NCBI GenBank assembly: GCA_946497925.1
Contig: CAMMMG010000004.1
Coordinates: 1-46,976 of the forward strand
Direction: 5' to 3'
DNA length: 46,976 bases
Source: an uncultured Mycoplasmatota bacterium
Lineage (GTDB): Bacteria; Bacillota_I; Bacilli_A; RF39; UBA660
In this document: in pieces, positions 34,293 to 42,113 of the stretch
How positions within the stretch are numbered: the first letter of the stretch is position 1
Layout: every line of letters starts with the position of its first letter
The notes under the pieces: generated by a model
Seen by the model: the letters and a program-made list of their open reading frames with translations, nothing else
Database searches by the model: none
What the model was told of the DNA's origin: nothing
Made by a program: the position numbers and the translations under genes

Positions 34293-36200
34293 ATGTTTAC
34301 AAGAGGAATAGATAAGAGAATGAAAATAATTCTTTTAATATTTAGTAGTATTTTGTTAGTAATAGTCTTAAGAGTGTTTTATGTACAGGTAGTAGATTAT
34401 AAAAAACTATCAACACTTGCTAGTGACTTATGGAGTAGGAATTTACCTATTGAAGCATCTCGTGGTAGGATTCTTGATAGAAATGGAGTAGTTCTTGCTG
34501 ATAATATTACAACAACATCTTTAGTTTTAATACCTAATCAGATTAAGAATAAAAAAGAAGTTACGACAAAACTTGCAGAGATTTTAGGAGTATGTTTTGA
34601 TGAGATGAAAGAACACGTTTATAAAGAAACATCTATTGAAAGGGTTCATCCTGAAGGAAGAAGACTATCTTATGAAGTTGCCGATAAAATAGAAGCCTTA
34701 AACTTTGATGGGGTTTATTTAGTTAAAGAGTCTAAAAGATATTATCCTTATGAAGAAATGTTATCCCATGTTCTAGGATATGTCGGAATAGATAATCAAG
34801 GTTTATCTGGAATAGAGTTACAGTATGATGATTATTTAATGGGTGAAAATGGTGCGATTAAATATTTTAGTGATGCTAAGGGAAATAAACTAGAACTAAC
34901 TGATTTATATATAGAGCCCCAAGATGGTATGGATTTACAACTTACTATTGATATAAATATTCAAAAGTCTATTGAAAGAGAACTTGATAATGTTGTCGAT
35001 ATGTTTAATCCTGATATGGCTCTTGCCGTTGTTATGGATCCTAAAACAGGAGAGATACTGGCGATGAGTTCTAGACCTAATTTTGATCCTAATAATTACG
35101 GGAATTACTCTCAAGAAGAATTATCTCGTAATCTTCCTATATGGGCTAGTTATGAACCTGGTTCTACCCAAAAGATAGTAACAACGGCTGCGGCAGTAGA
35201 AGAAGGGGTAGTAGATTTATTTAAAGATGAGTTTACTGATACTGGTTCTGTACAAGTTGATACTGCAAGGATTAAATGTTGGAAAGCAGGAGGACATGGA
35301 CACCAGACATTTCTTCAGGTACTTCAAAATTCATGTAACCCTGGATTTGTTAAGATGGGACAATTACTAGGCAAAGAGAGATTATTTCACTATTTAGATT
35401 TATTTGGTTTTGGTTCTAAGACAGGTATAGATCTAAATGGTGAAGGAGAAGGAATTATCTTTCCTCTTGAAAATGTTGGGAACATAGAACTTGCTACTAC
35501 TGCCTTTGGCCAAGGTATTAGTGTCACACCAATTCAACAGATAACAGCGATATCGGCAGTTATTAATGGGGGAGACTTATTAAAGCCTTTTGTCTTAAAA
35601 AATATCTTAGAGCCAGAAACTGGTAATGTAATGGAACATAATAGTAAGACTAAAATAAGGAAAGTAATAAGTGAAAAGACTAGTGAAATTATGAGATATG
35701 CCCTAGAAACAGTAGTTGCCTTAGGTGGTGGTAAATCTGCTTATATAGATGGTTATAGAATAGGTGGTAAGACAGGTACTGCTCAGAAAGCTGTTAATGG
35801 TGCTTATCTTGCGAATAACTACATAATGTCCTTTGTTGGGATAGTACCTTCAAATGATCCAGAAGCAGTTTTATATATTGCAATAGATAATCCGAAAGAT
35901 ACAGCATTATTATCAAGTTATACCACAACTCCTATCGCAAGAAGAATCCTTCTAGATATAATTGATGCTTTAGATATAGAAAAGCAAGAGGGAGGAGTAG
36001 AAAAAGACTATGAATGGACTGATAAAGTCTATTATGAGGTAGCAGATGTAGTAGGTAAAACACCTGAAGAAGCGAAAAAGTTCCTTGAACATTTTTCTAT
36101 AGAATATTCTGGTAGTGGTGATGTGATAATAAGCCAATCTCCAGAAGCAGGAACAAGGCTTGAAGATGGAAGCACAGTTAAATTAATGTTAGGTGAATAG
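34293..36200 (+). CDS. spoVD: stage V sporulation PBP SpoVD with a PASTA domain
   Basis: RGRILDRNG, YEPGSTQK, SCN and KTGTAQK motifs; C-terminal PASTA; sigma-E-like CATAAACT upstream; precedes mraY. Confidence 0.88.
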   Translation: MFTRGIDKRMKIILLIFSSILLVIVLRVFYVQVVDYKKLSTLASDLWSRNLPIEASRGRILDRNGVVLADNITTTSLVLIPNQIKNKKEVTTKLAEILGVCFDEMKEHVYKETSIERVHPEGRRLSYEVADKIEALNFDGVYLVKESKRYYPYEEMLSHVLGYVGIDNQGLSGIELQYDDYLMGENGAIKYFSDAKGNKLELTDLYIEPQDGMDLQLTIDINIQKSIERELDNVVDMFNPDMALAVVMDPKTGEILAMSSRPNFDPNNYGNYSQEELSRNLPIWASYEPGSTQKIVTTAAAVEEGVVDLFKDEFTDTGSVQVDTARIKCWKAGGHGHQTFLQVLQNSCNPGFVKMGQLLGKERLFHYLDLFGFGSKTGIDLNGEGEGIIFPLENVGNIELATTAFGQGISVTPIQQITAISAVINGGDLLKPFVLKNILEPETGNVMEHNSKTKIRKVISEKTSEIMRYALETVVALGGGKSAYIDGYRIGGKTGTAQKAVNGAYLANNYIMSFVGIVPSNDPEAVLYIAIDNPKDTALLSSYTTTPIARRILLDIIDALDIEKQEGGVEKDYEWTDKVYYEVADVVGKTPEEAKKFLEHFSIEYSGSGDVIISQSPEAGTRLEDGSTVKLMLGE

Positions 36201-36319
36201 TCTAAATTTAAAATTTAATCATAAAATTTAATGACAAGAGAAAGTCAAATGAAAAAATATATATAGAATAACAAAAATACTTATGCTATAATACTTAAAG
36301 AAACGAGAGGCGATAAGAC

Positions 36320-37300
36320 ATGTTATTACTTACAAAAGCAGTATTTGCAATTATGATTGGATTTTTATTTAGTGTAGTTTTAGGTCTTGTGCTTTTACCC
36401 CTTTTAAGAAAGTTAAAGGTAGGTCAAAGAATAAGTAGTTATGTAGGATACTCTCATAGGCAGAAAGAAGGTACTCCTACAATGGGAGGATTAATCTTTA
36501 TTATTCCTACTATTATAATTACTTTGGGACTATTAATTACCGATAAGATACCTTATTCTGATAATATAGCGATAGTCTTAGTTGTCTTTTTAGGATTTGC
36601 TATTATTGGATTTTTAGATGATTTTTTATCTTTAAAAAAGCATAATAATGAAGGGCTTACTACATATCAAAAATTACTAGGGCAAGTAATTATTTCTACA
36701 ATATTTTTCTATATCTATATGAAAAATGGAGGACAGACTTCTTTTGTTGTTGGTACTCTTGGTATTGATATAGAACTTACTTGGTTATATGGACTATTTA
36801 TATTATTTATCTTGATAGGAGCATCTAATGCAGTTAATTTAACAGATGGTCTTGATGGCCTTGCAGGAAGTTTGTCTGCAGTTGCTTTCATTGCCTTTGC
36901 TCTTATTTCCTTTGTGGTAGGCTTTGAAGATATTGGTATATTTTGTTTAGTATTAGTAGGTTCTTTGATTGGTTTCTTAGTGTATAATACTCATCCTGCT
37001 AAAGTATTTATGGGTGATACGGGATCCCTTGCCTTAGGTGGTGTTATGGGTGCCGTTGCCATACTAACTCATAGAGAACTTACTTTACTTGTAGTAGCAG
37101 GAGTCTTCGTAATAGAAACGTTATCAGTTATTTTACAAGTATTTTGGTTAAGATTTTTTCATAAAAAGTTATTCTTAATGACACCTTTACATCATCATTT
37201 TGAAAAACTTGGTTGGCAAGAAACTGATATTGTTAAATTATTTGTAGTCTTTGGACTATTACTTGCCATGGGTGGAATTATATTTGGAGTATGGTTATAG
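36320..37300 (+). CDS. mraY: phospho-N-acetylmuramoyl-pentapeptide transferase
   Basis: KEGTPTMGG, GFLDD, NAVNLTDGLDGL, FMGDTGS and PLHHHFE motifs. Confidence 0.97.
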   Translation: MLLLTKAVFAIMIGFLFSVVLGLVLLPLLRKLKVGQRISSYVGYSHRQKEGTPTMGGLIFIIPTIIITLGLLITDKIPYSDNIAIVLVVFLGFAIIGFLDDFLSLKKHNNEGLTTYQKLLGQVIISTIFFYIYMKNGGQTSFVVGTLGIDIELTWLYGLFILFILIGASNAVNLTDGLDGLAGSLSAVAFIAFALISFVVGFEDIGIFCLVLVGSLIGFLVYNTHPAKVFMGDTGSLALGGVMGAVAILTHRELTLLVVAGVFVIETLSVILQVFWLRFFHKKLFLMTPLHHHFEKLGWQETDIVKLFVVFGLLLAMGGIIFGVWL

Positions 37301-37314
37301 AAAAGAGTGATTAG

Positions 37315-38409
37315 ATGAATAAGAAAGGTTATGGTTTGCCTTTATTAGTCACAGTAATACTCTTAGTAACATTTGGACTTATAATGATATATTCAGCTTC
37401 CAGTATTTGGGCAGAATATAAGTTTCACGATAGTTTTCACTATGTGAAACAACAAGCATTATTTACAGTAATAGGATTTATAATAATGTATATAGTTAGT
37501 AAAATAGATTATAATATCTATTTTAAGAAGGCAAATATCATTTTAGGTATTTGCTTTTTATTATTAATTTTAGTTTTAATACCAGGAATAGGTAGTATTA
37601 GAAATGGTAGTCGTAGTTGGTTTGGAATAGGACCATTTGGAGTACAACCTAGTGAATTTATAAAACTAGCATTAATAATATTTACAAGTAAATACTTAGT
37701 TAATAGTAATAAGTTTTTAAAAAGTTATAAGAAAGGAGTTATTCCAATATTAGGGATTGCAACTCTTGCTTTTGGTCTTATTATGTTACAACCAGATTTA
37801 GGTACTGGTTTAGTCTTAATGGTCTCAATTATTGCTATGCTTTTTATTGCAGGAGTTAATATGAAATTCTTTTATATCTTAGGTGTAATAGGAGTAATTG
37901 GTGTAGTAATTCTAATAGCCATTGCCCCTTATCGAATGGATAGAATAACATCATTTCTTGATCCGTGGTCTGATCCTTTAGGAACAGGCTTTCAAATAAT
38001 ACAGTCTTTATATGCAATAGGACCAGGAGGACTACTTGGAACGGGTTTTCTTAATTCAAGACAAAAACATTTCTACTTACCAGAACCTCAAACAGATTTT
38101 ATTTTTTCTATTATCTGTGAAGAATTTGGGGTGGTAGGAGCGATATTTATTGCACTTCTTTTCTTTTTACTCCTATACTTCGGTGTAAAAATAGCATTAA
38201 AGTCAAATGACTTATTTGCCAAGTACTTAGCTTTCGGACTTATCTTTCAAATGATTTTTCAAGCATTAATGAATCTTGCGGTCGTTATAGGTTTAATACC
38301 TGTAACAGGGGTCACTTTACCTTTCTTATCTTATGGAGGAAGTTCTTTATTAATAAGTTTATTAAGTATTGGAATTCTTCTTAATATTGCGAAAAAAAAT
38401 AATCAGTAA
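37315..38409 (+). CDS. spoVE: SEDS glycosyltransferase SpoVE/FtsW
   Basis: QPSEFIK, QPDLGT, LPEPQTDFIF and GVTLPFLSYGGSS motifs; clustered with spoVD. Confidence 0.88.
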   Translation: MNKKGYGLPLLVTVILLVTFGLIMIYSASSIWAEYKFHDSFHYVKQQALFTVIGFIIMYIVSKIDYNIYFKKANIILGICFLLLILVLIPGIGSIRNGSRSWFGIGPFGVQPSEFIKLALIIFTSKYLVNSNKFLKSYKKGVIPILGIATLAFGLIMLQPDLGTGLVLMVSIIAMLFIAGVNMKFFYILGVIGVIGVVILIAIAPYRMDRITSFLDPWSDPLGTGFQIIQSLYAIGPGGLLGTGFLNSRQKHFYLPEPQTDFIFSIICEEFGVVGAIFIALLFFLLLYFGVKIALKSNDLFAKYLAFGLIFQMIFQALMNLAVVIGLIPVTGVTLPFLSYGGSSLLISLLSIGILLNIAKKNNQ

Positions 38410-38452
38410 CGGTATATTATATTAATAGAGATATTTATTTCATTTTTTAGAA

Positions 38453-38481
38453 TTTTGCGGTCCCAACTTGGGACTGCAAAA
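38453..38481. repeat. palindrome variant A (upstream of the ORF6N gene)
   Basis: TTTTGCGGTCCCAA-C-TTGGGACTGCAAAA (14-bp arms, 1 mismatch). Confidence 0.9.
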
Positions 38482-38529
38482 GGTAATGGAATAGGTATTT
38501 AAGATAAGATATAGAAGGAGGTTATAGTT

Positions 38530-39378
38530 ATAAACAATTTAATAGAAATAAAAGATATAAAAATAGAAAATATGATTTATGAAATAAGAGACAAACAAGT
38601 GATGCTAGATAGTGATTTAGCTAAACTATATCATGTTGAAACAAAGAGGATTAATGAAGCAGTTAAGAATAATATGGAGAAATTTCCAGAAAGGTTTAGT
38701 TTTGTTTTAACTAATGAAGAAGCAATAAACTTGAGGTCGAAAATTTCGACCTCAAGATTAAATAATCATGGTGGTAATAGATACGCTCCTAGAGTTTTTA
38801 CAGAACAAGGAGTAGCCATGCTTGCAACAATACTAAAATCTAAAGTTGCTACACAAGTAAGTATAAGGATAATGGATGCTTTTGTAGCCATGAGAAAATA
38901 TATTTCAAGTGATTTAATTGAACATAGTAAAATGCTAATTAATCATGAGAATAGACTTTCTTTATTAGAGAACACTTTCGATAGTTTTAAAGATAAAAAT
39001 AATCATATATTTTATGAAGGACAGATTTATGATGCTTATTCTCTTATGATGAAGATATTTGAAAAAGCTGAAAGTAATATCATTATAATAGATAATTATA
39101 TTGATAAGAATATTTTAGACATATTATCTAAGACTAATAAACAAGTAACGTTAATTACTAATAAATACAAAATACAAGACTATGAAAAGTATAAAGAACA
39201 ATATAATAATGTTACTTTAGTAGTTAATAACTCTTTTCATGATAGATTTATCATTTTAGATAAGAAAGATTTATATCACTCGGGAGCAAGTTTTAAAGAT
39301 TTAGGTAAGAAGTGTTTTGCAATTACTAAGATAGAAAGTAAAGAAATTTTAGATAGTTTGTTAGATAAGTTAGAATAA
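38530..39378 (+). CDS. ORF6N-domain DNA-binding protein with a C-terminal PLD-like domain
   Basis: IYEIR..QVMLDSDLA.LY, FPERF.F.L and FTEQGVAML (ORF6N); IIIDNY...HDRFIILD...YHSGAS.KD (PLD-like). The AAGGAGG RBS points to in-frame ATA 38530; the first ATG is 38572. Confidence 0.88.
   Translation: MNNLIEIKDIKIENMIYEIRDKQVMLDSDLAKLYHVETKRINEAVKNNMEKFPERFSFVLTNEEAINLRSKISTSRLNNHGGNRYAPRVFTEQGVAMLATILKSKVATQVSIRIMDAFVAMRKYISSDLIEHSKMLINHENRLSLLENTFDSFKDKNNHIFYEGQIYDAYSLMMKIFEKAESNIIIIDNYIDKNILDILSKTNKQVTLITNKYKIQDYEKYKEQYNNVTLVVNNSFHDRFIILDKKDLYHSGASFKDLGKKCFAITKIESKEILDSLLDKLE
38730..38756. repeat. palindrome variant B (inside the ORF6N coding sequence)
   Basis: CTTGAGGTCGAAA-A-TTTCGACCTCAAG, perfect 13-bp arms, encoding LRSKISTS. 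Confidence 0.95.
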
Positions 39379-39402
39379 TAACATTAATAGAAATTATTGG
39401 AT

Positions 39403-39417
39403 ATCACAATTTGTGAT
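39403..39417. repeat. palindrome variant C (downstream of the ORF6N gene)
   Basis: ATCACAA-T-TTGTGAT; in the same register it reads W-I-S-Q-F-V-I. Confidence 0.65.
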
Positions 39418-39506
39418 TATGTTAAATAGAAGAGATTAGTCTATTCTTTTTCTTTACATTTTTATAGATATTATGGTAATCTATAACTCGTGAAAAGAGG
39501 GATTAT

Positions 39507-39968
39507 ATGATTAAATTTTATTATGTTTCTATTACTGATAGAAATTTATATATAGATGATATTAATCTTTTAGAGTATCTTAAAAACTATTTTCCTAATA
39601 ATTATACATATTATAAAGATATGGTTAAGAAAAGTGATATAGTTAATTTTGATAAATATAAAGAATCTAGAATGTTTTTTAATAGAAAACTTGAAGAAGA
39701 AGGATTATCTCCTTATTTACTAATAAGAAAAAAAGAGGGAGAGCTTAGAGAAATAAATACTAATAGCCCTTTAGTTGGATCTAATATTAAGAAACCTAAA
39801 TTAAAAGAATTAACTAGAGAAGAGTTAGAGACTTTATATACGGATGATTATATAAAAAGAACTAATAAGTATATTTACTATTCATCAGCTTTAGACAATA
39901 ATCCTATATTTGATTTGGATTATGAAGAAGAAAAAGAAAAATTTAAAATCATAAAGAAAACAAACTAG
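39507..39968 (+). CDS. hypothetical protein
   Basis: GAGG RBS; 153-aa ORF; no motif recognised. Confidence 0.65.
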   Translation: MIKFYYVSITDRNLYIDDINLLEYLKNYFPNNYTYYKDMVKKSDIVNFDKYKESRMFFNRKLEEEGLSPYLLIRKKEGELREINTNSPLVGSNIKKPKLKELTREELETLYTDDYIKRTNKYIYYSSALDNNPIFDLDYEEEKEKFKIIKKTN

Positions 39969-40441
39969 TCTTGCTTACTTAGTTTGTTTTTAAATAAATT
40001 AAATATAGATCTTACTATTGGCCCTGCATAAAATAATTGAAAACACATAGCCATAGGAAAACTTAGGACCATAGATTGCAACCAACTAGATATAAATATA
40101 TCAAGACTAGGTTTATTTATAAGAATAGTGGCAATTAAACTCATAATAGGGCACATAAAAGTAACTATTATAATAGATATACCATAACTTATAATAATAT
40201 TAGGTGTTTTCTTAGGATTAAGTGCTTTAAAAGTTAATTTGTGAGCGATCTTGCCTATTAAGAAAAACTCTAAAATAATAGCGATAGGCCACATATATAT
40301 TAATTCATTAAAAGCTTCTAGAAATACAAAGTTATTTAATCCTCCAGTATGAATAGCAATATTATAACAAATCATAACATATACCATTAAAAAAGCCATT
40401 ATTAAAGTATAAATAAAGTCTTGAAACTTAGTTTCAGGCAT
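39965..40441 (-). CDS. DUF2798-family membrane protein
   Basis: MPETKFQ..I, MVYVMICYN, MCPIMS and FQLFYAGPIVR motifs; four TM helices; GGAGG RBS. Confidence 0.8.
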   Translation of the reverse strand: MPETKFQDFIYTLIMAFLMVYVMICYNIAIHTGGLNNFVFLEAFNELIYMWPIAIILEFFLIGKIAHKLTFKALNPKKTPNIIISYGISIIIVTFMCPIMSLIATILINKPSLDIFISSWLQSMVLSFPMAMCFQLFYAGPIVRSIFNLFKNKLSKQD

Positions 40442-40648
40442 ATACTTAACCTCCTTCCTTGCAATATAAAAACAGCACTGTTTATGTGTTGTTCGTTAGC
40501 ATCTTTTAGATGTTGCGTTTCCAATTTAACCATTAAACCTGTTTCCTTAAAGATTTTAGCATAATCTAAAAAAATATGTAAGAAAAAGTTTATTTTTGTA
40601 GTATTTTTTCTAAATTTATAGTATATTTTTATCAAGGGAGGAAGTATT

Positions 40649-41074
40649 ATGACACTTTTTTGGTTAGTTTTATTTGTAGTATTAGCATTGTTTGAACTTG
40701 TAACAGTAAACTTAGTATCTATTTGGTTTTCACTTGGAGCTTTAATTACAACTTTTGTATCTTTAGTAACTGATAACTTAATGATACATCTAGCAGTTTT
40801 TACTATCAGTTCTATTCTCTTATTACTTTTAACAAAACCTTTTGTTAAAAAGATGAAGAAAAGAGAAGAAGTGCCTACTAATTTAGATATGGTTGTAGGT
40901 AAGACTGGAGTTGTTACAGAAAAAATAGAAAAAGATGGAATAGGTGAAGTTAAAGTTCTAGGTAAGAAGTGGAGTGCATATAGTGATAAAGAAGTAGAAG
41001 AGAATTCTAAAGTAAAAGTATTATCTATTAATGGAGTAAAACTTAAAGTAGAAGAAATAAAGGAGAGTGATTAA
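40649..41074 (+). CDS. NfeD-family protein
   Basis: Three TM helices plus an OB-like VGKTGVV...GEVKV.GKKWSA; directly upstream of an SPFH gene. Confidence 0.9.
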   Translation: MTLFWLVLFVVLALFELVTVNLVSIWFSLGALITTFVSLVTDNLMIHLAVFTISSILLLLLTKPFVKKMKKREEVPTNLDMVVGKTGVVTEKIEKDGIGEVKVLGKKWSAYSDKEVEENSKVKVLSINGVKLKVEEIKESD

Positions 41075-41960
41075 TATGTTTTGGGTTATATTAATAGTAA
41101 TTATTGTTATTATAGTATTAGGAGTAAAAGTTATTCCTCAATCACAAGCGAAAGTAATAGAAAGATTAGGTTCTTATTATAAGACTCTTGGTACAGGACC
41201 TCATTATGTTGTACCATTTATTGATAGAGTAGCATCTACTGTATCTCTAAAAGAAATAGTTAAAGACTTTGCACCACAACCTGTTATTACTAAAGATAAT
41301 GTTACTATGCAAATAGATACAGTTGTTTATTTTCAAATAACTGATCCTAAGCTTTATACTTATGGAGTAGAAAATCCTATTAATGCAATTGAAAATTTAA
41401 CGGCAACTACACTTCGTAATATTATAGGTGAGTTAGAACTAGATCAAACCTTAACATCAAGAGATATCATTAATTCTAAAATGAGATCAATTCTAGATGA
41501 AGCGACTGATCCTTGGGGTATTAAAGTAAATAGAGTAGAAGTTAAAAACATCATACCACCTCGTGATATTCAAGATGCTATGGAAAAACAAATGCGTGCA
41601 GAACGTGAAAGACGTGAGAAGATATTACAAGCGGAAGGTGAGAAGAAAGCTGCTGTATTAATCGCTGAAGGAGAAAAAGAAAGTACAGTCTTAAGAGCAG
41701 AAGCAGCGAAAGAAGCAGCTATTAAGAAAGCAGAAGGTGAAGCAGAGGCAATTATTAAAATCAAAAATGCTGAAGCTGAAGGTATCAAACTATTAAAAGA
41801 AGCTAAAGCAGATGCTTCGGTCTTAAAACTTAAAAGTTATGATGCTATGGTTAAAGTTGCAAATGGACAGTCTACTAAGATAATAGTTCCTAGTGAGTTA
41901 CAGAATTTAGTAACAGCAGGAACAGTATTAAGTGAAACATTTAAAGAAGGAAAGAAATAA
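41067..41960 (+). CDS. SPFH/band 7 (stomatin/QmcA-like) protein
   Basis: VITKDNV, TTLRNIIG, DEATDPWG and AMEKQMRAERE motifs; the start may be ATG 41076. Confidence 0.95.
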   Translation: MINMFWVILIVIIVIIVLGVKVIPQSQAKVIERLGSYYKTLGTGPHYVVPFIDRVASTVSLKEIVKDFAPQPVITKDNVTMQIDTVVYFQITDPKLYTYGVENPINAIENLTATTLRNIIGELELDQTLTSRDIINSKMRSILDEATDPWGIKVNRVEVKNIIPPRDIQDAMEKQMRAERERREKILQAEGEKKAAVLIAEGEKESTVLRAEAAKEAAIKKAEGEAEAIIKIKNAEAEGIKLLKEAKADASVLKLKSYDAMVKVANGQSTKIIVPSELQNLVTAGTVLSETFKEGKK

Positions 41961-42113
41961 TTGAAATTTCTTTTTTTCTTTGATATAATATGCCTCTAGA
42001 GAAAAGATGTATTTATATGAATTCTCTAAATAATAGAAAAGTAATCAAAGAAAAAATAACTGTATAATTCTAATAAATCAAAAAAATTAAAGACAATTAG
42101 ATAGGAGATAAAC

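What the first reader, a model, noticed from the sequence alone, without database searches (positions are those of the whole stretch)
38453..39417. ORF6N-PLD gene whose DNA-binding domain is partly encoded by a palindrome, flanked by two co-varying variants of that palindrome
Seen in sequence: there are three palindromes of one design, TC-NN-AA-n-TT-NN-GA with a 1-nt centre. They are upstream TTTTGCGGTCCCAA-C-TTGGGACTGCAAAA (38453-38481), in-gene CTTGAGGTCGAAA-A-TTTCGACCTCAAG (38730-38756) and downstream ATCACAA-T-TTGTGAT (39403-39417). In the same register they read LRSQLGTAK, LRSKISTSR and WISQFVI. The inner variable bases change symmetrically (CC/GG, GA/TC, AC/GT), so dyad symmetry is kept even inside the coding region, and the flanks are not otherwise homologous. 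From family knowledge: ORF6N is a predicted DNA-binding domain, and I recall this segment as a variable LRSQ-x-x-T-like motif; the C-terminal HDRF...GAS motif is PLD-nuclease-like. Inference, three options: (a) the flanking copies are silent donors or remnants that diversify this peptide; (b) the protein binds or cuts a site that also encodes its own recognition segment; (c) the palindromes mark the ends of a small self-mobilising module, by analogy with REP/RAYT. The module sits directly after spoVE, where murG lies in Bacillus.
Basis: partly seen in the sequence, partly recalled or inferred. Interest (0 to 1): 0.85.

Follow-up and report, generated by a model that had tools for sequence, protein, structure and literature searches.

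The report
Conserved DNA palindrome inside ORF6N genes
A 27-base perfect DNA palindrome sits inside this gene's DNA-binding domain, and the same palindrome is kept at the same spot in related genes across many bacterial groups, so it looks like a working DNA signal hidden in coding sequence.

Summary
The in-gene palindrome (38730-38756, 13+1+13, perfect) is real and far beyond chance. It is a family-wide feature. In 77 of 80 ORF6N loci from many phyla, 12 or more of 16 positions pair at the same codons. Synonymous-codon shuffles almost never reproduce it. 11 of 13 pairs co-vary, and the palindrome is read in all three frames in different paralogues. It is therefore a DNA-level element, not a coding by-product.

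The upstream palindrome (38453-38481) belongs to the same family. It is present in 6 of 6 same-genus loci with an ORF6N gene after ftsW and in 0 of 5 without one. The downstream 7-bp-arm palindrome is no better than chance.

Non-coding arrays of such palindromes flank ORF6N genes elsewhere. The protein is a predicted dimeric winged-HTH, coiled coil and PLD-fold protein. Its architecture resembles TrmB/TrmBL2, it has H-D-R instead of H-x-K, and it matches PADLOC candidate defence family PDC-S05.

Best reading (about 0.4): the palindrome is the ORF6N dimer's own DNA site. Binding is untested. Rivals are a recombination hairpin, an RNA hairpin and a self-perpetuating quasipalindrome. I found no support for silent donors or REP/RAYT-like mobility.

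The parts
38426..38453 (+). Promoter-like site TAGAGA-16-TAGAAT that ends where palindrome A starts
   Evidence: Consensus scan only. The flanking sequence is conserved in 6 same-genus loci after ftsW. Function not shown.
38453..38481 (.). Palindrome A: non-coding family member, 14-nt arms with 1 mismatch, 1-nt centre, 43 nt after the ftsW stop and about 45-60 nt before the ORF6N start region
   Evidence: Orthologous copies in 6 of 6 same-genus loci with ORF6N after ftsW, with symmetric sequence differences (CC/GG against AC/GT) and 1-2 mismatches each. Absent in 5 of 5 same-genus genomes without ORF6N after ftsW.
38516..38532 (+). GGAGG ribosome-binding site, then ATA codons at 38524 and 38530 where homologues have their start (MVINDLIE / MNDLIE)
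   Evidence: The frame is open from 38515 (287 codons). The first ATG is at 38572.
38572..39378 (+). ORF6N plus PLD-fold gene (268 aa from the first ATG; homologues are 282-285 aa)
   Evidence: Pfam ORF6N, 113.3 bits against a cut-off of 27.8, residues 2-87. PADLOC PDC-S05 model PDLC04869, E 1.8e-95, residues 1-267.
38575..38925 (+). ORF6N winged-HTH domain and first long helix, the predicted dimer interface (residues 36-42 and 77-111)
38730..38756 (.). Palindrome B: perfect 13+1+13, encoding (N)LRSKISTSR. These are residues 54-62, at the end of helix 48-54 and the start of the low-confidence loop 55-73.
   Evidence: Family-wide conservation.
39001..39375 (+). C-terminal PLD-fold domain with invariant H223-D224-R225, D230, G238, S240 (H223 = 39238-39240)
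39403..39417 (.). Palindrome C: 7-nt arms. Doubtful, probably chance or a weak hairpin.
39507..39968 (+). 153-aa ORF with no family match; a possible companion of the module
   Evidence: No Pfam, NCBIfam, PADLOC or PHROG hit. Found in 4 of 24 relatives. In G006 and G015 its place lies about 130 nt beyond the end of an ORF6N gene placed.

Best explanation
Palindrome B is one copy of a DNA-level, dyad-symmetric element that is built into the ORF6N domain family. It is about 27 bp long, with consensus YTTGAGGTC-N-M-AA / N / TT-K-N-GACCTCAAR. It occupies the codons of the wing loop that follows the helix-turn-helix.

Most likely it is the cognate duplex site of the ORF6N dimer. The protein would bind the palindrome inside its own gene, and stand-alone copies such as A in its promoter or leader region. 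Binding at the start site and about 260-300 bp downstream could repress or anchor the gene. The DNA-binding module would then carry its own site wherever it is shuffled.

In the window, this module is fused through a coiled coil to a PLD-fold domain. That domain could be an effector nuclease or a ligand sensor. The gene belongs to a family listed as candidate phage defence (PDC-S05).

The perfect symmetry at positions that vary freely is probably kept by selection on the dyad, helped by hairpin-templated (template-switch) correction between the arms.

Shown here: the element, its conservation, its co-variation, its strand neutrality, its co-location with ORF6N genes, the fold, and model support for a dimer. 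Inferred: that the protein binds it, and what binding does.
For: (1) Family-wide presence. 77 of 80 genome loci, which include Bacilli, Clostridia, Bacteroidota, Campylobacterota, Acidobacteriota, Fibrobacter, a Desulfohalobiaceae genome and Melainabacteria, have 12 or more of 16 complementary positions. 61 of the 80 have the palindrome at the same offset. Of 1081 control windows in the same loci, 28 reach 13 or more. All 16 distinct viral versions have 10-13 of 13.

(2) Not explained by the peptide. For the 39 distinct genes with perfect arms of 12 or more, at most 1 of 2000 uniform and at most 7 of 2000 usage-weighted synonymous shuffles reach the observed arm. Codon choice is bent to the palindrome: Arg AGG 56 of 66 against 14% in the rest of the same ORFs, Leu TTG 72 of 99 against 16%, Thr ACC 75 of 95 against 15%.

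(3) Co-variation. 96.0% of 1287 cells pair, against 79.0 +/- 0.6 in shuffles (0 of 500 reach it). 11 of 13 pairs change on both sides, and slid controls give 24-51%. One pair shows all four Watson-Crick types with 3 of 99 unpaired.

(4) DNA rather than peptide. The centre lies at codon position 1 in 23 in-genus sites, position 2 in 5 and position 3 in 2, out of 30. The core GGTCGAAAWTTTCGACC encodes RSKIST in one case and VEIFDQ in another.

(5) Duplex DNA rather than RNA. Only 14 of 66 non-Watson-Crick cells are G/T, against 25 that are A/C. Complementarity runs up to the single central base, and pairs 1 and 2 each show one compensating change: pair 2 as G-C in one in-gene site, pair 1 as G-C in the stand-alone site at L006:416.

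(6) Stand-alone non-coding copies occur only next to ORF6N genes. The own genome has 4 hits, all at ORF6N genes or relics. The 246 kb of ORF6N flanks hold 18 true stand-alone sites. Many lie 25-110 nt before the start codon, in Bacilli, Acidobacteriota and viral contigs. In one subfamily the right arm supplies a TTGAAA -35-like hexamer about 16-17 nt (my count) before a TATAAT-like box.

(7) The protein fits a dyad site. It has HTH 13-33 and a long helix. The homodimer model scores ipSAE 0.59 against a best control of 0.00. That mark was reached by 20 of 30 proteins solved as pairs and by 1 of 23 solved as single chains. The runs agree in at least 45% of contacts, and partner pLDDT is at least 67. 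The best whole-chain fold matches are TrmBL2 and TrmB, which are DNA-binding regulators with a winged helix, a coiled coil and a PLD-like domain.
Against: No binding data exist, and I could not model a protein-DNA complex.

Neighbouring stand-alone sites differ from each other and from the adjacent in-gene site at pairs 3-5 and 8-10. Paralogues with near-identical HTH helices carry different cores, TTTC against TCCC. If one protein binds all of these, those positions are not read. Their strict complementarity then needs another cause, such as hairpin pairing or template-switch correction.

A 13-bp half-site is long for one HTH. Upstream copies are present in only a minority of loci, and the orthologous A copies carry 1-2 mismatches each.

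The PDC-S05 representative reported to protect E. coli against T7, T5 and T4 carries a RhuM domain, not this architecture (bioRxiv 10.1101/2024.09.26.614923, passages read). Defence activity of this gene is therefore not shown.
Confidence: 0.4

Rival explanations
1. The palindrome works as an intrastrand DNA hairpin or cruciform. It would be a structure-specific break or recombination point that lets ORF6N genes in either orientation exchange their halves in frame, or be truncated. Neighbouring arrays of variant palindromes might act as partners.
For: Free co-variation at positions that no single protein is likely to read. Two relic genes begin exactly at the left edge of the palindrome, with unrelated DNA upstream: C14:401-431 beside RNase J and G016:C1. 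Contigs from two other samples start their match at 38735. The central base flips A to T between otherwise identical palindromes (L014/L015, L056/L060, L127/L149), as expected if the loop is copied around a hairpin. The family is multi-copy, tandem and fragment-rich in the genus. ORF6N is listed among 'domain-swapping Bro network proteins' (PMC10111431, passage read).
Against: There are only two truncation cases, and they may lie at one orthologous locus upstream of mraZ. The one clear mosaic (P0005 against P0083) spans about 30 residues, so it does not break at the palindrome. A hairpin cannot close over a 1-nt loop, yet pairs 1 and 2 stay complementary. No recombinase or structure-specific nuclease is linked to the element. 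The stand-alone copies share no flanking homology with the genes.
Confidence: 0.2
2. The symmetry has no function of its own. An ancestral quasipalindrome in a conserved motif perpetuates itself, because hairpin-templated replication errors copy one arm onto the other faster than point mutations accumulate. Stand-alone copies are the last surviving pieces of decayed paralogues.
For: Palindromes stay perfect in pseudogene relics (C14, L198) and in non-coding DNA. The centre composition is strand-symmetric: A 52, T 36, C 6, G 5. There is co-variation without wobble intermediates. The genus has many decaying copies.
Against: 77 of 80 loci across phyla have 12 or more of 16 positions paired. With no selection, decay would be an absorbing state over that span. 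Rare codons are kept even in high-GC hosts (L087, L097). The non-coding arrays are ordered, with repeated units of about 60-120 bp, which does not look like debris. Upstream copies sit at a recurring distance from start codons. The flanks of A and C show no residual gene homology.
Confidence: 0.15
3. The element acts as an RNA hairpin. It would be a 5' leader or internal stem that controls mRNA stability, processing or translation, or that terminates antisense transcription.
For: Palindrome A would lie at the very 5' end of a transcript from the TAGAGA-16-TAGAAT site. The consensus scan calls B terminator-like on the minus strand. In L061 three copies lie between the stop codon and a terminator-like hairpin. 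A's single mismatch is a G/T, which would be a G-U wobble in sense RNA.
Against: There is no excess of G/T over A/C mismatches, 14 against 25, so neither strand is favoured. Pairing continues to a 1-nt centre. In many copies the arms end in a T-run on the 5' side and an A-run on the 3' side on both strands, the reverse of a terminator. No Rfam family matches.
Confidence: 0.1
4. The gene and its flanking palindromes form a small self-mobilising module analogous to REP/RAYT, with the PLD-fold domain as the strand-transfer enzyme.
For: The single-gene module lies between housekeeping genes at different places in different genomes: after ftsW, upstream of mraZ, and after a gene I read as RNase HIII from its sequence. 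Palindromes lie on both sides of some genes. From recall, PLD nucleases use a covalent phosphohistidine intermediate.
Against: There are only 4 sites per genome and no dispersal. C is not a family member. No target duplication or empty site was found, because the DNA after ftsW differs completely in 5 of 5 genomes without the gene. The universal copy is the in-gene one, including in ORF6N genes that lack a PLD domain.
Confidence: 0.04

Closest known systems
parS site inside the parB/spo0J gene
   Same: A palindromic site for an HTH protein lies inside the coding sequence of the gene for that protein and is conserved across distant bacteria.
   Different: parS is 16 bp with an even centre. Its binding has been shown by experiment, and it serves chromosome partition. 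Here the site is 27 bp with a single central base, sits at one fixed codon window of the DNA-binding domain in the whole domain family, varies by co-variation, and its binding is untested.
TrmB / TrmBL2 archaeal regulators (PDB 5box, 3qph)
   Same: Best whole-chain fold matches (E 1e-7 to 1e-5). From recall, they share the architecture of an N-terminal winged helix, a coiled coil and a C-terminal PLD-like domain without a canonical HKD motif, and TrmB binds palindromic sites as a dimer.
   Different: No sequence-family match. TM-score is only 0.33-0.35 over the whole chain. The N-terminal domain here is ORF6N.
PADLOC candidate defence family PDC-S05
   Same: Full-length match to model PDLC04869 (E 1.8e-95). 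The family is multi-copy and fast-turning in the genus.
   Different: PDC-S05 is a candidate family defined by gene neighbourhood. The representative reported to protect E. coli carries a RhuM domain (10.1101/2024.09.26.614923, passages). In the 12 papers that mention ORF6N and the 5 that mention PDC-S05 I found nothing on a palindrome, going by the listings and the three passages I read.
PLD-superfamily nucleases (Nuc 1byr, NucT 6ehi, Zucchini 4ggj; BfiI recalled)
   Same: The C-terminal domain has the PLD fold (TM-score to target 0.51-0.59). It keeps an invariant H...D...G-x-S constellation.
   Different: The motif is H-D-R-x4-D-x7-G-A-S, not H-x-K-x4-D-x6-G-S-x-N. There is no Pfam PLD hit, and catalysis is untested.
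REP elements with RAYT transposases; Rickettsia palindromic elements in coding genes (both recalled)
   Same: Short palindromes that keep their stem through compensating changes. REPs flank their RAYT gene, and RPEs are translated in frame.
   Different: REPs are dispersed in tens to hundreds of copies and pair with an HUH enzyme. RPEs are 100-150 bp insertions in unrelated genes. Here there are about 4 copies per genome, all at one gene family, and the in-gene copy sits at a homologous position without adding length.
Quasipalindrome template-switch mutation (recalled)
   Same: It would explain concerted change of both arms and flips of the central base.
   Different: It is a mutational process, not a function. 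It does not explain why the element is retained in nearly all members of the family.

Membership tests
ORF6N domain (Pfam PF10543) | Profile match above the curated cut-off | tested here: met
   113.3 bits against 27.8, residues 2-87 of 268, profile positions 3-86 of 86. Also found by genome search.
PLD superfamily (HKD enzymes) | PLD fold | tested here: met
   Foldseek hits: NucT 6ehi E 2e-6, TM-score to target 0.56; Nuc 1byr 0.59; Zucchini 4ggj 0.51. The model pLDDT in this domain is 94-97.
PLD superfamily (HKD enzymes) | Catalytic motif H-x-K-x4-D-x6-G-(S/T)-x-N | tested here: not met
   In 61 aligned homologues H223, D224, R225, D230, G238 and S240 are invariant. K is replaced by R, and the spacing to G is 7. 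No Pfam PLD family hit at E <= 0.01.
PLD superfamily (HKD enzymes) | Phosphodiesterase or nuclease activity | not testable with these tools
   Needs an enzyme assay.
PADLOC PDC-S05 (candidate phage defence) | Match to a family model | tested here: met
   PDLC04869, E 1.8e-95, residues 1-267 against 20-300 of 306.
PADLOC PDC-S05 (candidate phage defence) | Protection against phage | not testable with these tools
   Reported for one RhuM-domain representative in E. coli (passages). Not for this architecture.
TrmB-family regulators | Sequence-family membership | tested here: not met
   No Pfam or NCBIfam TrmB hit. No PDB sequence hit at E <= 1. The likeness is in fold and architecture only.
Self-site operator (a protein binding a palindrome in or near its own gene) | Symmetric oligomer | tested here: inconclusive
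   The model supports a homodimer: 0.59 against a best control of 0.00. The mark was reached by 20 of 30 proteins solved as pairs and 1 of 23 solved as single chains. Runs agree in at least 45% of contacts, and pLDDT is at least 67. This is a prediction, not a measurement.
Self-site operator (a protein binding a palindrome in or near its own gene) | Specific binding of the protein to the palindrome | not testable with these tools
   No protein-DNA modelling or assay was available.
REP/RAYT-type mobile palindromes | HUH (Y1) transposase gene flanked by REPs, with many dispersed copies | tested here: not met
   No HUH domain. There are 4 sites in 1.21 Mb, all at ORF6N genes.
Intrinsic terminator | GC-rich stem with a loop of 3 or more nt, followed by a T-run | tested here: not met
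   The sense strand of B is followed by ATTAAATAAT. Only the minus strand is flagged by the consensus scan. A is followed by AAAAGG. Many family copies have A-runs 3' of the stem on both strands.
Known RNA families (Rfam 15) | Covariance-model match | tested here: not met
   There are no matches in 38400-39500. The only two hits in 36000-42000 are weak chance-level ones at 41868-41979.

The most novel reading that the evidence does not exclude
ORF6N would be a self-referential DNA-binding module. The dimer binds the very palindrome that encodes its own wing loop, so a symmetric change of the palindrome alters the site and the reading loop together. The arrays of variant palindromes beside some genes (six different ones in G340:C19, four in L073) would be partner sites or donors. 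Together these would give this defence-linked family a built-in way to diversify site and reader in step.
Probability: 0.1. Interest if true: 0.95.

Novelty: new variant of a known kind. Interest (0 to 1): 0.8.

Why it matters
Cis-elements hidden in coding DNA are known only as isolated cases. Here a whole, very large domain family keeps a 27-bp perfect palindrome at one fixed codon window across phyla. The family has 26,340 clusters at 50% identity with E <= 0.001. The palindrome overrides codon usage, and in some paralogues it overrides the reading frame.

If the palindrome is the domain's own binding site, ORF6N is a portable regulator that carries its operator inside itself. That would explain how the 'Bro network' of phage and defence proteins can shuffle this module freely. 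It would also give a direct, testable handle on the function of an uncharacterised candidate defence family (PDC-S05).

There are two practical lessons. Conserved peptide motifs such as LRSQ-x-x-TS may be partly shaped by DNA-level constraint. Synonymous recoding of such genes for expression may also destroy a functional element.

Tried and rejected
Chance: rejected for B and A, not for C.

Coding by-product: rejected by the synonymous shuffles, the codon-usage contrast and the three reading frames.

Recent lateral transfer of one sequence: rejected. There are 99 distinct 37-mers with compensating changes, in hosts of very different GC content.

Relics: I looked for leftover gene homology beside A and C. 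Observed local scores lie inside the shuffle range (59-200 of 200 shuffles reach them), so nothing shows they are gene relics. The test has little power on sequences of 24-89 nt.

Empty site: the five same-genus genomes without ORF6N after ftsW each have unrelated DNA directly after the ftsW stop. No insertion boundaries could be defined.

Silent-donor exchange: no contig or genome showed A or C in place of B.

Reads: read laying gave only Logan contigs, which cannot show RNA ends, strand or rare variants. Two RNA-library contigs match 38689-38923 (X16) and 38338-38552 (X18) exactly, but DNA carry-over is not excluded. The rest of the gene had no cover in the two RNA runs, which proves nothing. 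The contigs also show tandem-copy and internal-deletion forms like those in G006.

Rfam: no family match. PDB by sequence: no hit.

Phage collection: only 5 unannotated 'Bacteriophage sp.' records, and no studied phage.

Literature:
- 'ORF6N' gave 12 papers (listing). I read single passages of two, and neither mentions a palindrome.
- Six 10-mers of the palindrome gave 20 papers. Judged only from titles and abstract openings, none concerns this element, and I opened none.
- 'PDC-S05' gave 5 papers, and I read passages of one.
Supplementary Data 4 of 10.1101/2024.09.26.614923 may define the tested PDC-S05 protein.

Pattern GGTCNNAANTTNNGACC in 401 genomes of the phylum: 19 genomes hit, no more than its reversed control. 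Most of the listed sites nevertheless have complementary NN, and one genome has 9, at least 6 of them on one contig.

Not done:
- protein-DNA modelling;
- a census of all PF10543 members (I sampled 80 of 596 confirmed genome hits and 80 of 120 viral hits, the best-scoring ones);
- a phylogeny-corrected test of co-variation between protein residues and site bases.

Rows dropped or missed:
- L099 was left out of the 99-site set, because its best 'palindrome' is at another offset and is not the family element.
- 15 of 160 loci were not located by my regular expression, and duplicates were printed once.
- In some searches the centre was chosen as the best-pairing position in a 160-nt window. This favours pairing slightly, but 61 of 80 fall at one offset.
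Full report
**What is in the window.** The finding lies directly after a gene of the FtsW/RodA/SpoVE family (37315-38409; Pfam PF01098, E 2e-118). It consists of one gene (38572-39378 from the first ATG, 268 aa) with an ORF6N domain at residues 2-87 (113.3 bits against a cut-off of 27.8). All three palindromes are present as described.
- B (38730-38756) has perfect 13-nt arms around one central base.
- A (38453-38481) has 14-nt arms with one G/T mismatch.
- C (39403-39417) has 7-nt arms.

**Chance.** The genome is 1.21 Mb in 102 contigs with 27% GC. It holds only four perfect palindromes with a 1-nt centre and arms of 13 or more, against 170 with 7-nt arms. So B is exceptional and C is not.

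**The paralogue that changed the question.** A search of the genome with the protein found further copies. One, on contig C14, begins exactly at a palindrome and has unrelated DNA from the RNase J locus upstream of it. That palindrome shares the 17-nt core GGTCGAAAWTTTCGACC with B. Its outer arms differ from B's but are complementary to each other.
A third copy, on C23, encodes ILKSQIATS through TTGAAGTCGCAA-A-TTGCGACCTCAA. Relative to B, an A-to-C change in the left arm is matched by a T-to-G change in the right arm.

**Within the genus.** 18 of 23 same-genus genomes have 1-8 matches. These are often tandem, and many are fragments or carry stop codons.
- In the loci fetched, my scan found 30 in-gene palindromes (arms 12-21 nt with at most one mismatch, always a 1-nt centre) lying 14-19 codons before the conserved FTEQG motif.
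- A further locus, L011, has the palindrome (13 perfect pairs), but my peptide regular expression did not place it in a frame.
- Two loci first missed by that scan have 12 of 13 (L018) and 10 of 13 (L021, a pseudogene) complementary positions.
- The central base lies at codon position 1 in 23 sites (LRSKISTS, LRSQVGT, LRFQFETLE, LKSQFGTSS), at position 2 in 5 (FLVEIFDQK) and at position 3 in 2.
- The same DNA core is therefore translated into unrelated peptides. Two database proteins, P0005 and P0083, are otherwise nearly identical and differ in just this patch.

**Across phyla.** With an alignment of 14 in-genus domains I fetched 80 genome loci (the best of 596 confirmed) and 80 viral loci (the best of 120).
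- In 77 of 80 genome loci, 12 or more of 16 positions around the best centre are complementary (67 of 80 have 13 or more), and 61 of 80 share one offset. Of 1081 control windows of equal size elsewhere in the same loci, 28 reach 13 or more, and some of those are extra family copies.
- The hosts named in the record titles include Flavobacteriia, Sulfurovaceae, Lachnospiraceae, Atopobium, Acidobacteriota, Fibrobacter, Desulfohalobiaceae, Campylobacteraceae, Alistipes and Melainabacteria.
- The 16 distinct viral versions have 10-13 of 13.
- L099 has no family palindrome. I left it out of later counts.

**Is it forced by the peptide?** No.
- For the 39 distinct genes with perfect arms of 12 or more, at most 1 of 2000 uniform and at most 7 of 2000 usage-weighted synonymous shuffles reach the observed arm. 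15 of the 160 loci were not located by my script.
- Codon choice inside the palindrome departs sharply from the rest of the same ORFs: Arg AGG 56 of 66 against 14%, Leu TTG 72 of 99 against 16%, Thr ACC 75 of 95 against 15%, Ser AGT 1 of 136 against 34%.

**Co-variation.** On 99 distinct 37-mers aligned without gaps, 96.0% of 1287 cells pair, against 79.0 +/- 0.6 in shuffles (0 of 500 reach it).
- 11 of 13 pairs show changes on both sides (216 cells). The co-variation score is 0.472 against 0.154. Sliding the partner by 1-3 columns gives 24-51%.
- Pair 4 from the centre has GC 42, CG 28, AT 19, TA 7 and only 3 unpaired. Pair 3 has CG 73, AT 26 and none unpaired.
- Pairing holds for 13 positions, fades at 14-16 and is gone at 17-18.
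- One caveat applies. The sequences are related, and the centre was chosen as the best-pairing position.

**DNA or RNA?** Of 66 non-Watson-Crick cells, 14 are G/T and 25 are A/C. Wobble pairs are not favoured, and neither strand is privileged. Complementarity runs right up to the single central base, which no hairpin loop could allow. Pairs 1 and 2 each show one compensating change, pair 2 in an in-gene site and pair 1 in a stand-alone one. The centre is A 52, T 36, C 6, G 5, and it flips between A and T in otherwise identical palindromes. In the usual frame it is the first base of an NTT codon, so all four bases give a hydrophobic residue. No Rfam family matches.

**Stand-alone copies.**
- A matrix built from the 99 sites finds four places in the whole genome: B, the C23 in-gene site, the C14 relic and A.
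- In 246 kb of ORF6N flanks from other genomes it finds 71 in-gene sites and 23 others. Five of the 23 are in-gene sites that my filter missed, which leaves 18 truly stand-alone sites. Three more occur in 120 kb of viral flanks.
- Many lie 25-110 nt before an ORF6N start codon.
- Some form arrays. L073 has four sites 112-122 nt apart, in repeated units upstream of the gene. L061 has three sites 75 nt apart after the stop codon. In G340:C19 six different sites lie within 390 bp, in the intergenic region after an ORF6N plus PLD-type gene.
- All of these are flanked by stop codons in every frame, so they are not coding.

**Palindrome A.** The sequence between ftsW and the ORF6N start is conserved in six same-genus loci. 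All six carry a palindrome at the same place, but with different, symmetrically changed cores (GCGGTCCCAA..TTGGGACTGC, GAGGTCACAA..ATGTTACCTC, TAGGTCACAT..TTGTGACCTC) and 1-2 mismatches each. Five of five same-genus genomes that lack ORF6N after ftsW lack the palindrome, and they have unrelated DNA from the ftsW stop onward. A therefore belongs to the ORF6N module and is not an ftsW terminator. It starts where a promoter-like TAGAGA-16-TAGAAT site ends. In a sister subfamily the right arm of the upstream palindrome supplies a TTGAAA hexamer about 16-17 nt (my count) before a TATAAT-like box.

**Palindrome C.** In the closest orthologue it reads ATCACATTTGTGAT. The single-base centre is lost.

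**The locus in the nearest relative.** G006 has ftsW, then A', then a deletion-derivative ORF6N gene, then a GGTTTCAA-type palindrome, then a 99% identical orthologue. The window lacks one 707-bp unit of this arrangement. Contigs from other samples show the same tandem and deleted forms.

**The protein.** The AlphaFold model (mean pLDDT 86.9, 61-row alignment) has these parts:
- two short strands, then helices 13-20 and 24-33, which I read as a helix-turn-helix;
- a strand, then helix 48-54;
- a low-confidence loop at 55-73;
- strand 74-76, helix 78-88 and a long helix 91-118;
- a flexible linker, and a compact C-terminal domain from about residue 144.

Palindrome B encodes residues 54-62, which are the end of helix 48-54 and the start of the loop. 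I read this loop as a wing by inference. Its low confidence fits the tolerance to frame changes.

The best whole-chain fold matches are TrmBL2 and TrmB. The C-terminal domain alone matches the PLD nucleases NucT, Nuc and Zucchini. In 61 homologues H223, D224, R225, D230, G238 and S240 are invariant, so the motif is H-D-R rather than H-x-K.

The homodimer model scores 0.59 against a best control of 0.00. The mark was reached by 20 of 30 proteins solved as pairs and by 1 of 23 solved as single chains. The runs agree in at least 45% of contacts, and partner pLDDT is at least 67. The interface covers residues 36-42 and 77-111. This supports dimerisation but does not show it.

**Family labels.**
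- PADLOC: full-length match to PDC-S05 (E 1.8e-95).
- PHROGs: the N-terminal domain matches 'anti-repressor' families.
- A preprint reports that one PDC-S05 representative, described as carrying a RhuM domain, lowered plating of T7 and T5 about 1000-fold and of T4 about 10-fold in E. coli (10.1101/2024.09.26.614923, passages read). That is not this architecture.
- ORF6N is listed among 'domain-swapping Bro network proteins' (PMC10111431, passage).

**Reading.** The element is a DNA-level dyad tied to the ORF6N module.
- I rank first (0.4) that it is the duplex site of the ORF6N dimer, giving a module that carries its own operator. The upstream copies would form a promoter-plus-internal pair, as known for other repressors (recalled: gal OE/OI, and parS within parB).
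- The weak point is that neighbouring sites differ at positions that stay strictly complementary. A reading protein does not explain this, so I add hairpin-templated correction between the arms as an inferred helper.
- The rivals are a recombination or break hairpin (0.2), supported by two relics that start exactly at the palindrome; a self-perpetuating quasipalindrome without function (0.15); an RNA hairpin (0.1); and a REP/RAYT-like mobile module (0.04).

**Novelty.** The gene is a new member of known families (ORF6N, PDC-S05). I did not find the family-wide embedded palindrome described in the papers I could search.

Noticed in passing
window 38515-38574: Homologues are 282-285 aa and start MVINDLIE or MNDLIE. 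In the window the matching codons are ATA (38524 and 38530), after GGAGG at 38516-38520, and the first ATG is 14-16 codons later at 38572. Either a non-standard ATA start is used, or the start was lost and translation begins at 38572 without a visible ribosome-binding site.
   Followed up: partly
G000 contig C14:1-431 and C63:3996-4268: A 5'-truncated ORF6N plus PLD-fold copy, 82-88% identical to the window gene. It starts at a perfect 15-nt-arm palindrome right after the RNase J gene and continues on another contig upstream of mraZ. An ATG directly after the palindrome could still give an N-terminally shortened protein (METRGGRY...).
   Followed up: partly
G000 contig C23:4200-5600 (L002): A short ORF6N gene (172 codons, no PLD domain) is followed by a gene that I read as RhuM-like from its sequence. 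Upstream lie two inverted copies of a different palindrome with an even centre (TTACGAAAATTCGTAA type) before a TTGACT-17-TATAGA promoter-like site. One copy of this palindrome and the promoter-like site are also seen upstream of MNEVV-type paralogues in L014, L027, L029 and L030.
   Followed up: partly
window 39507-39968: A 153-aa ORF without any family match. It is found in only 4 of 24 relatives searched. In G006 and G015 its coordinates lie about 130 nt beyond the end of an ORF6N gene. It may belong to the same module.
   Followed up: partly
L208 = G340:C19:5500-10500, positions 2099-2484: Six different perfect or near-perfect family palindromes lie within 390 bp of non-coding DNA, between a gene I read as RNase HIII and the 3' end of an ORF6N plus PLD-type gene. 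Spacings are 64, 108, 60, 94 and 59 nt. This is the densest array seen.
   Followed up: partly
L004 (G006:C10), L006 (G016:C5), L198 (G016:C1): Recurrent deletion derivatives of the gene, in which residues about 1-120 are joined to about 218-268. There are tandem arrays of 2-3 copies in relatives. A contig from another sample shows the same 317-nt skip.
   Followed up: partly
proteins P0121, P0123, P0125-P0128: Homologues of about 400-470 aa match the query in two stretches, with the full match starting at residue 120-140. They probably carry a second N-terminal ORF6N-like domain.
   Followed up: no
window 37315-38409 and relatives: The DNA after ftsW differs in every same-genus genome examined, and murG is not there. 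The end of the cell-division gene cluster seems to be a variable spot in this genus.
   Followed up: partly
window 38300-39600: Near-identical sequence (0.85-0.98 of the sampled words) is held by 13 public runs, most of them labelled chicken gut metagenome. One run may be the source sample and is not independent.
   Followed up: no
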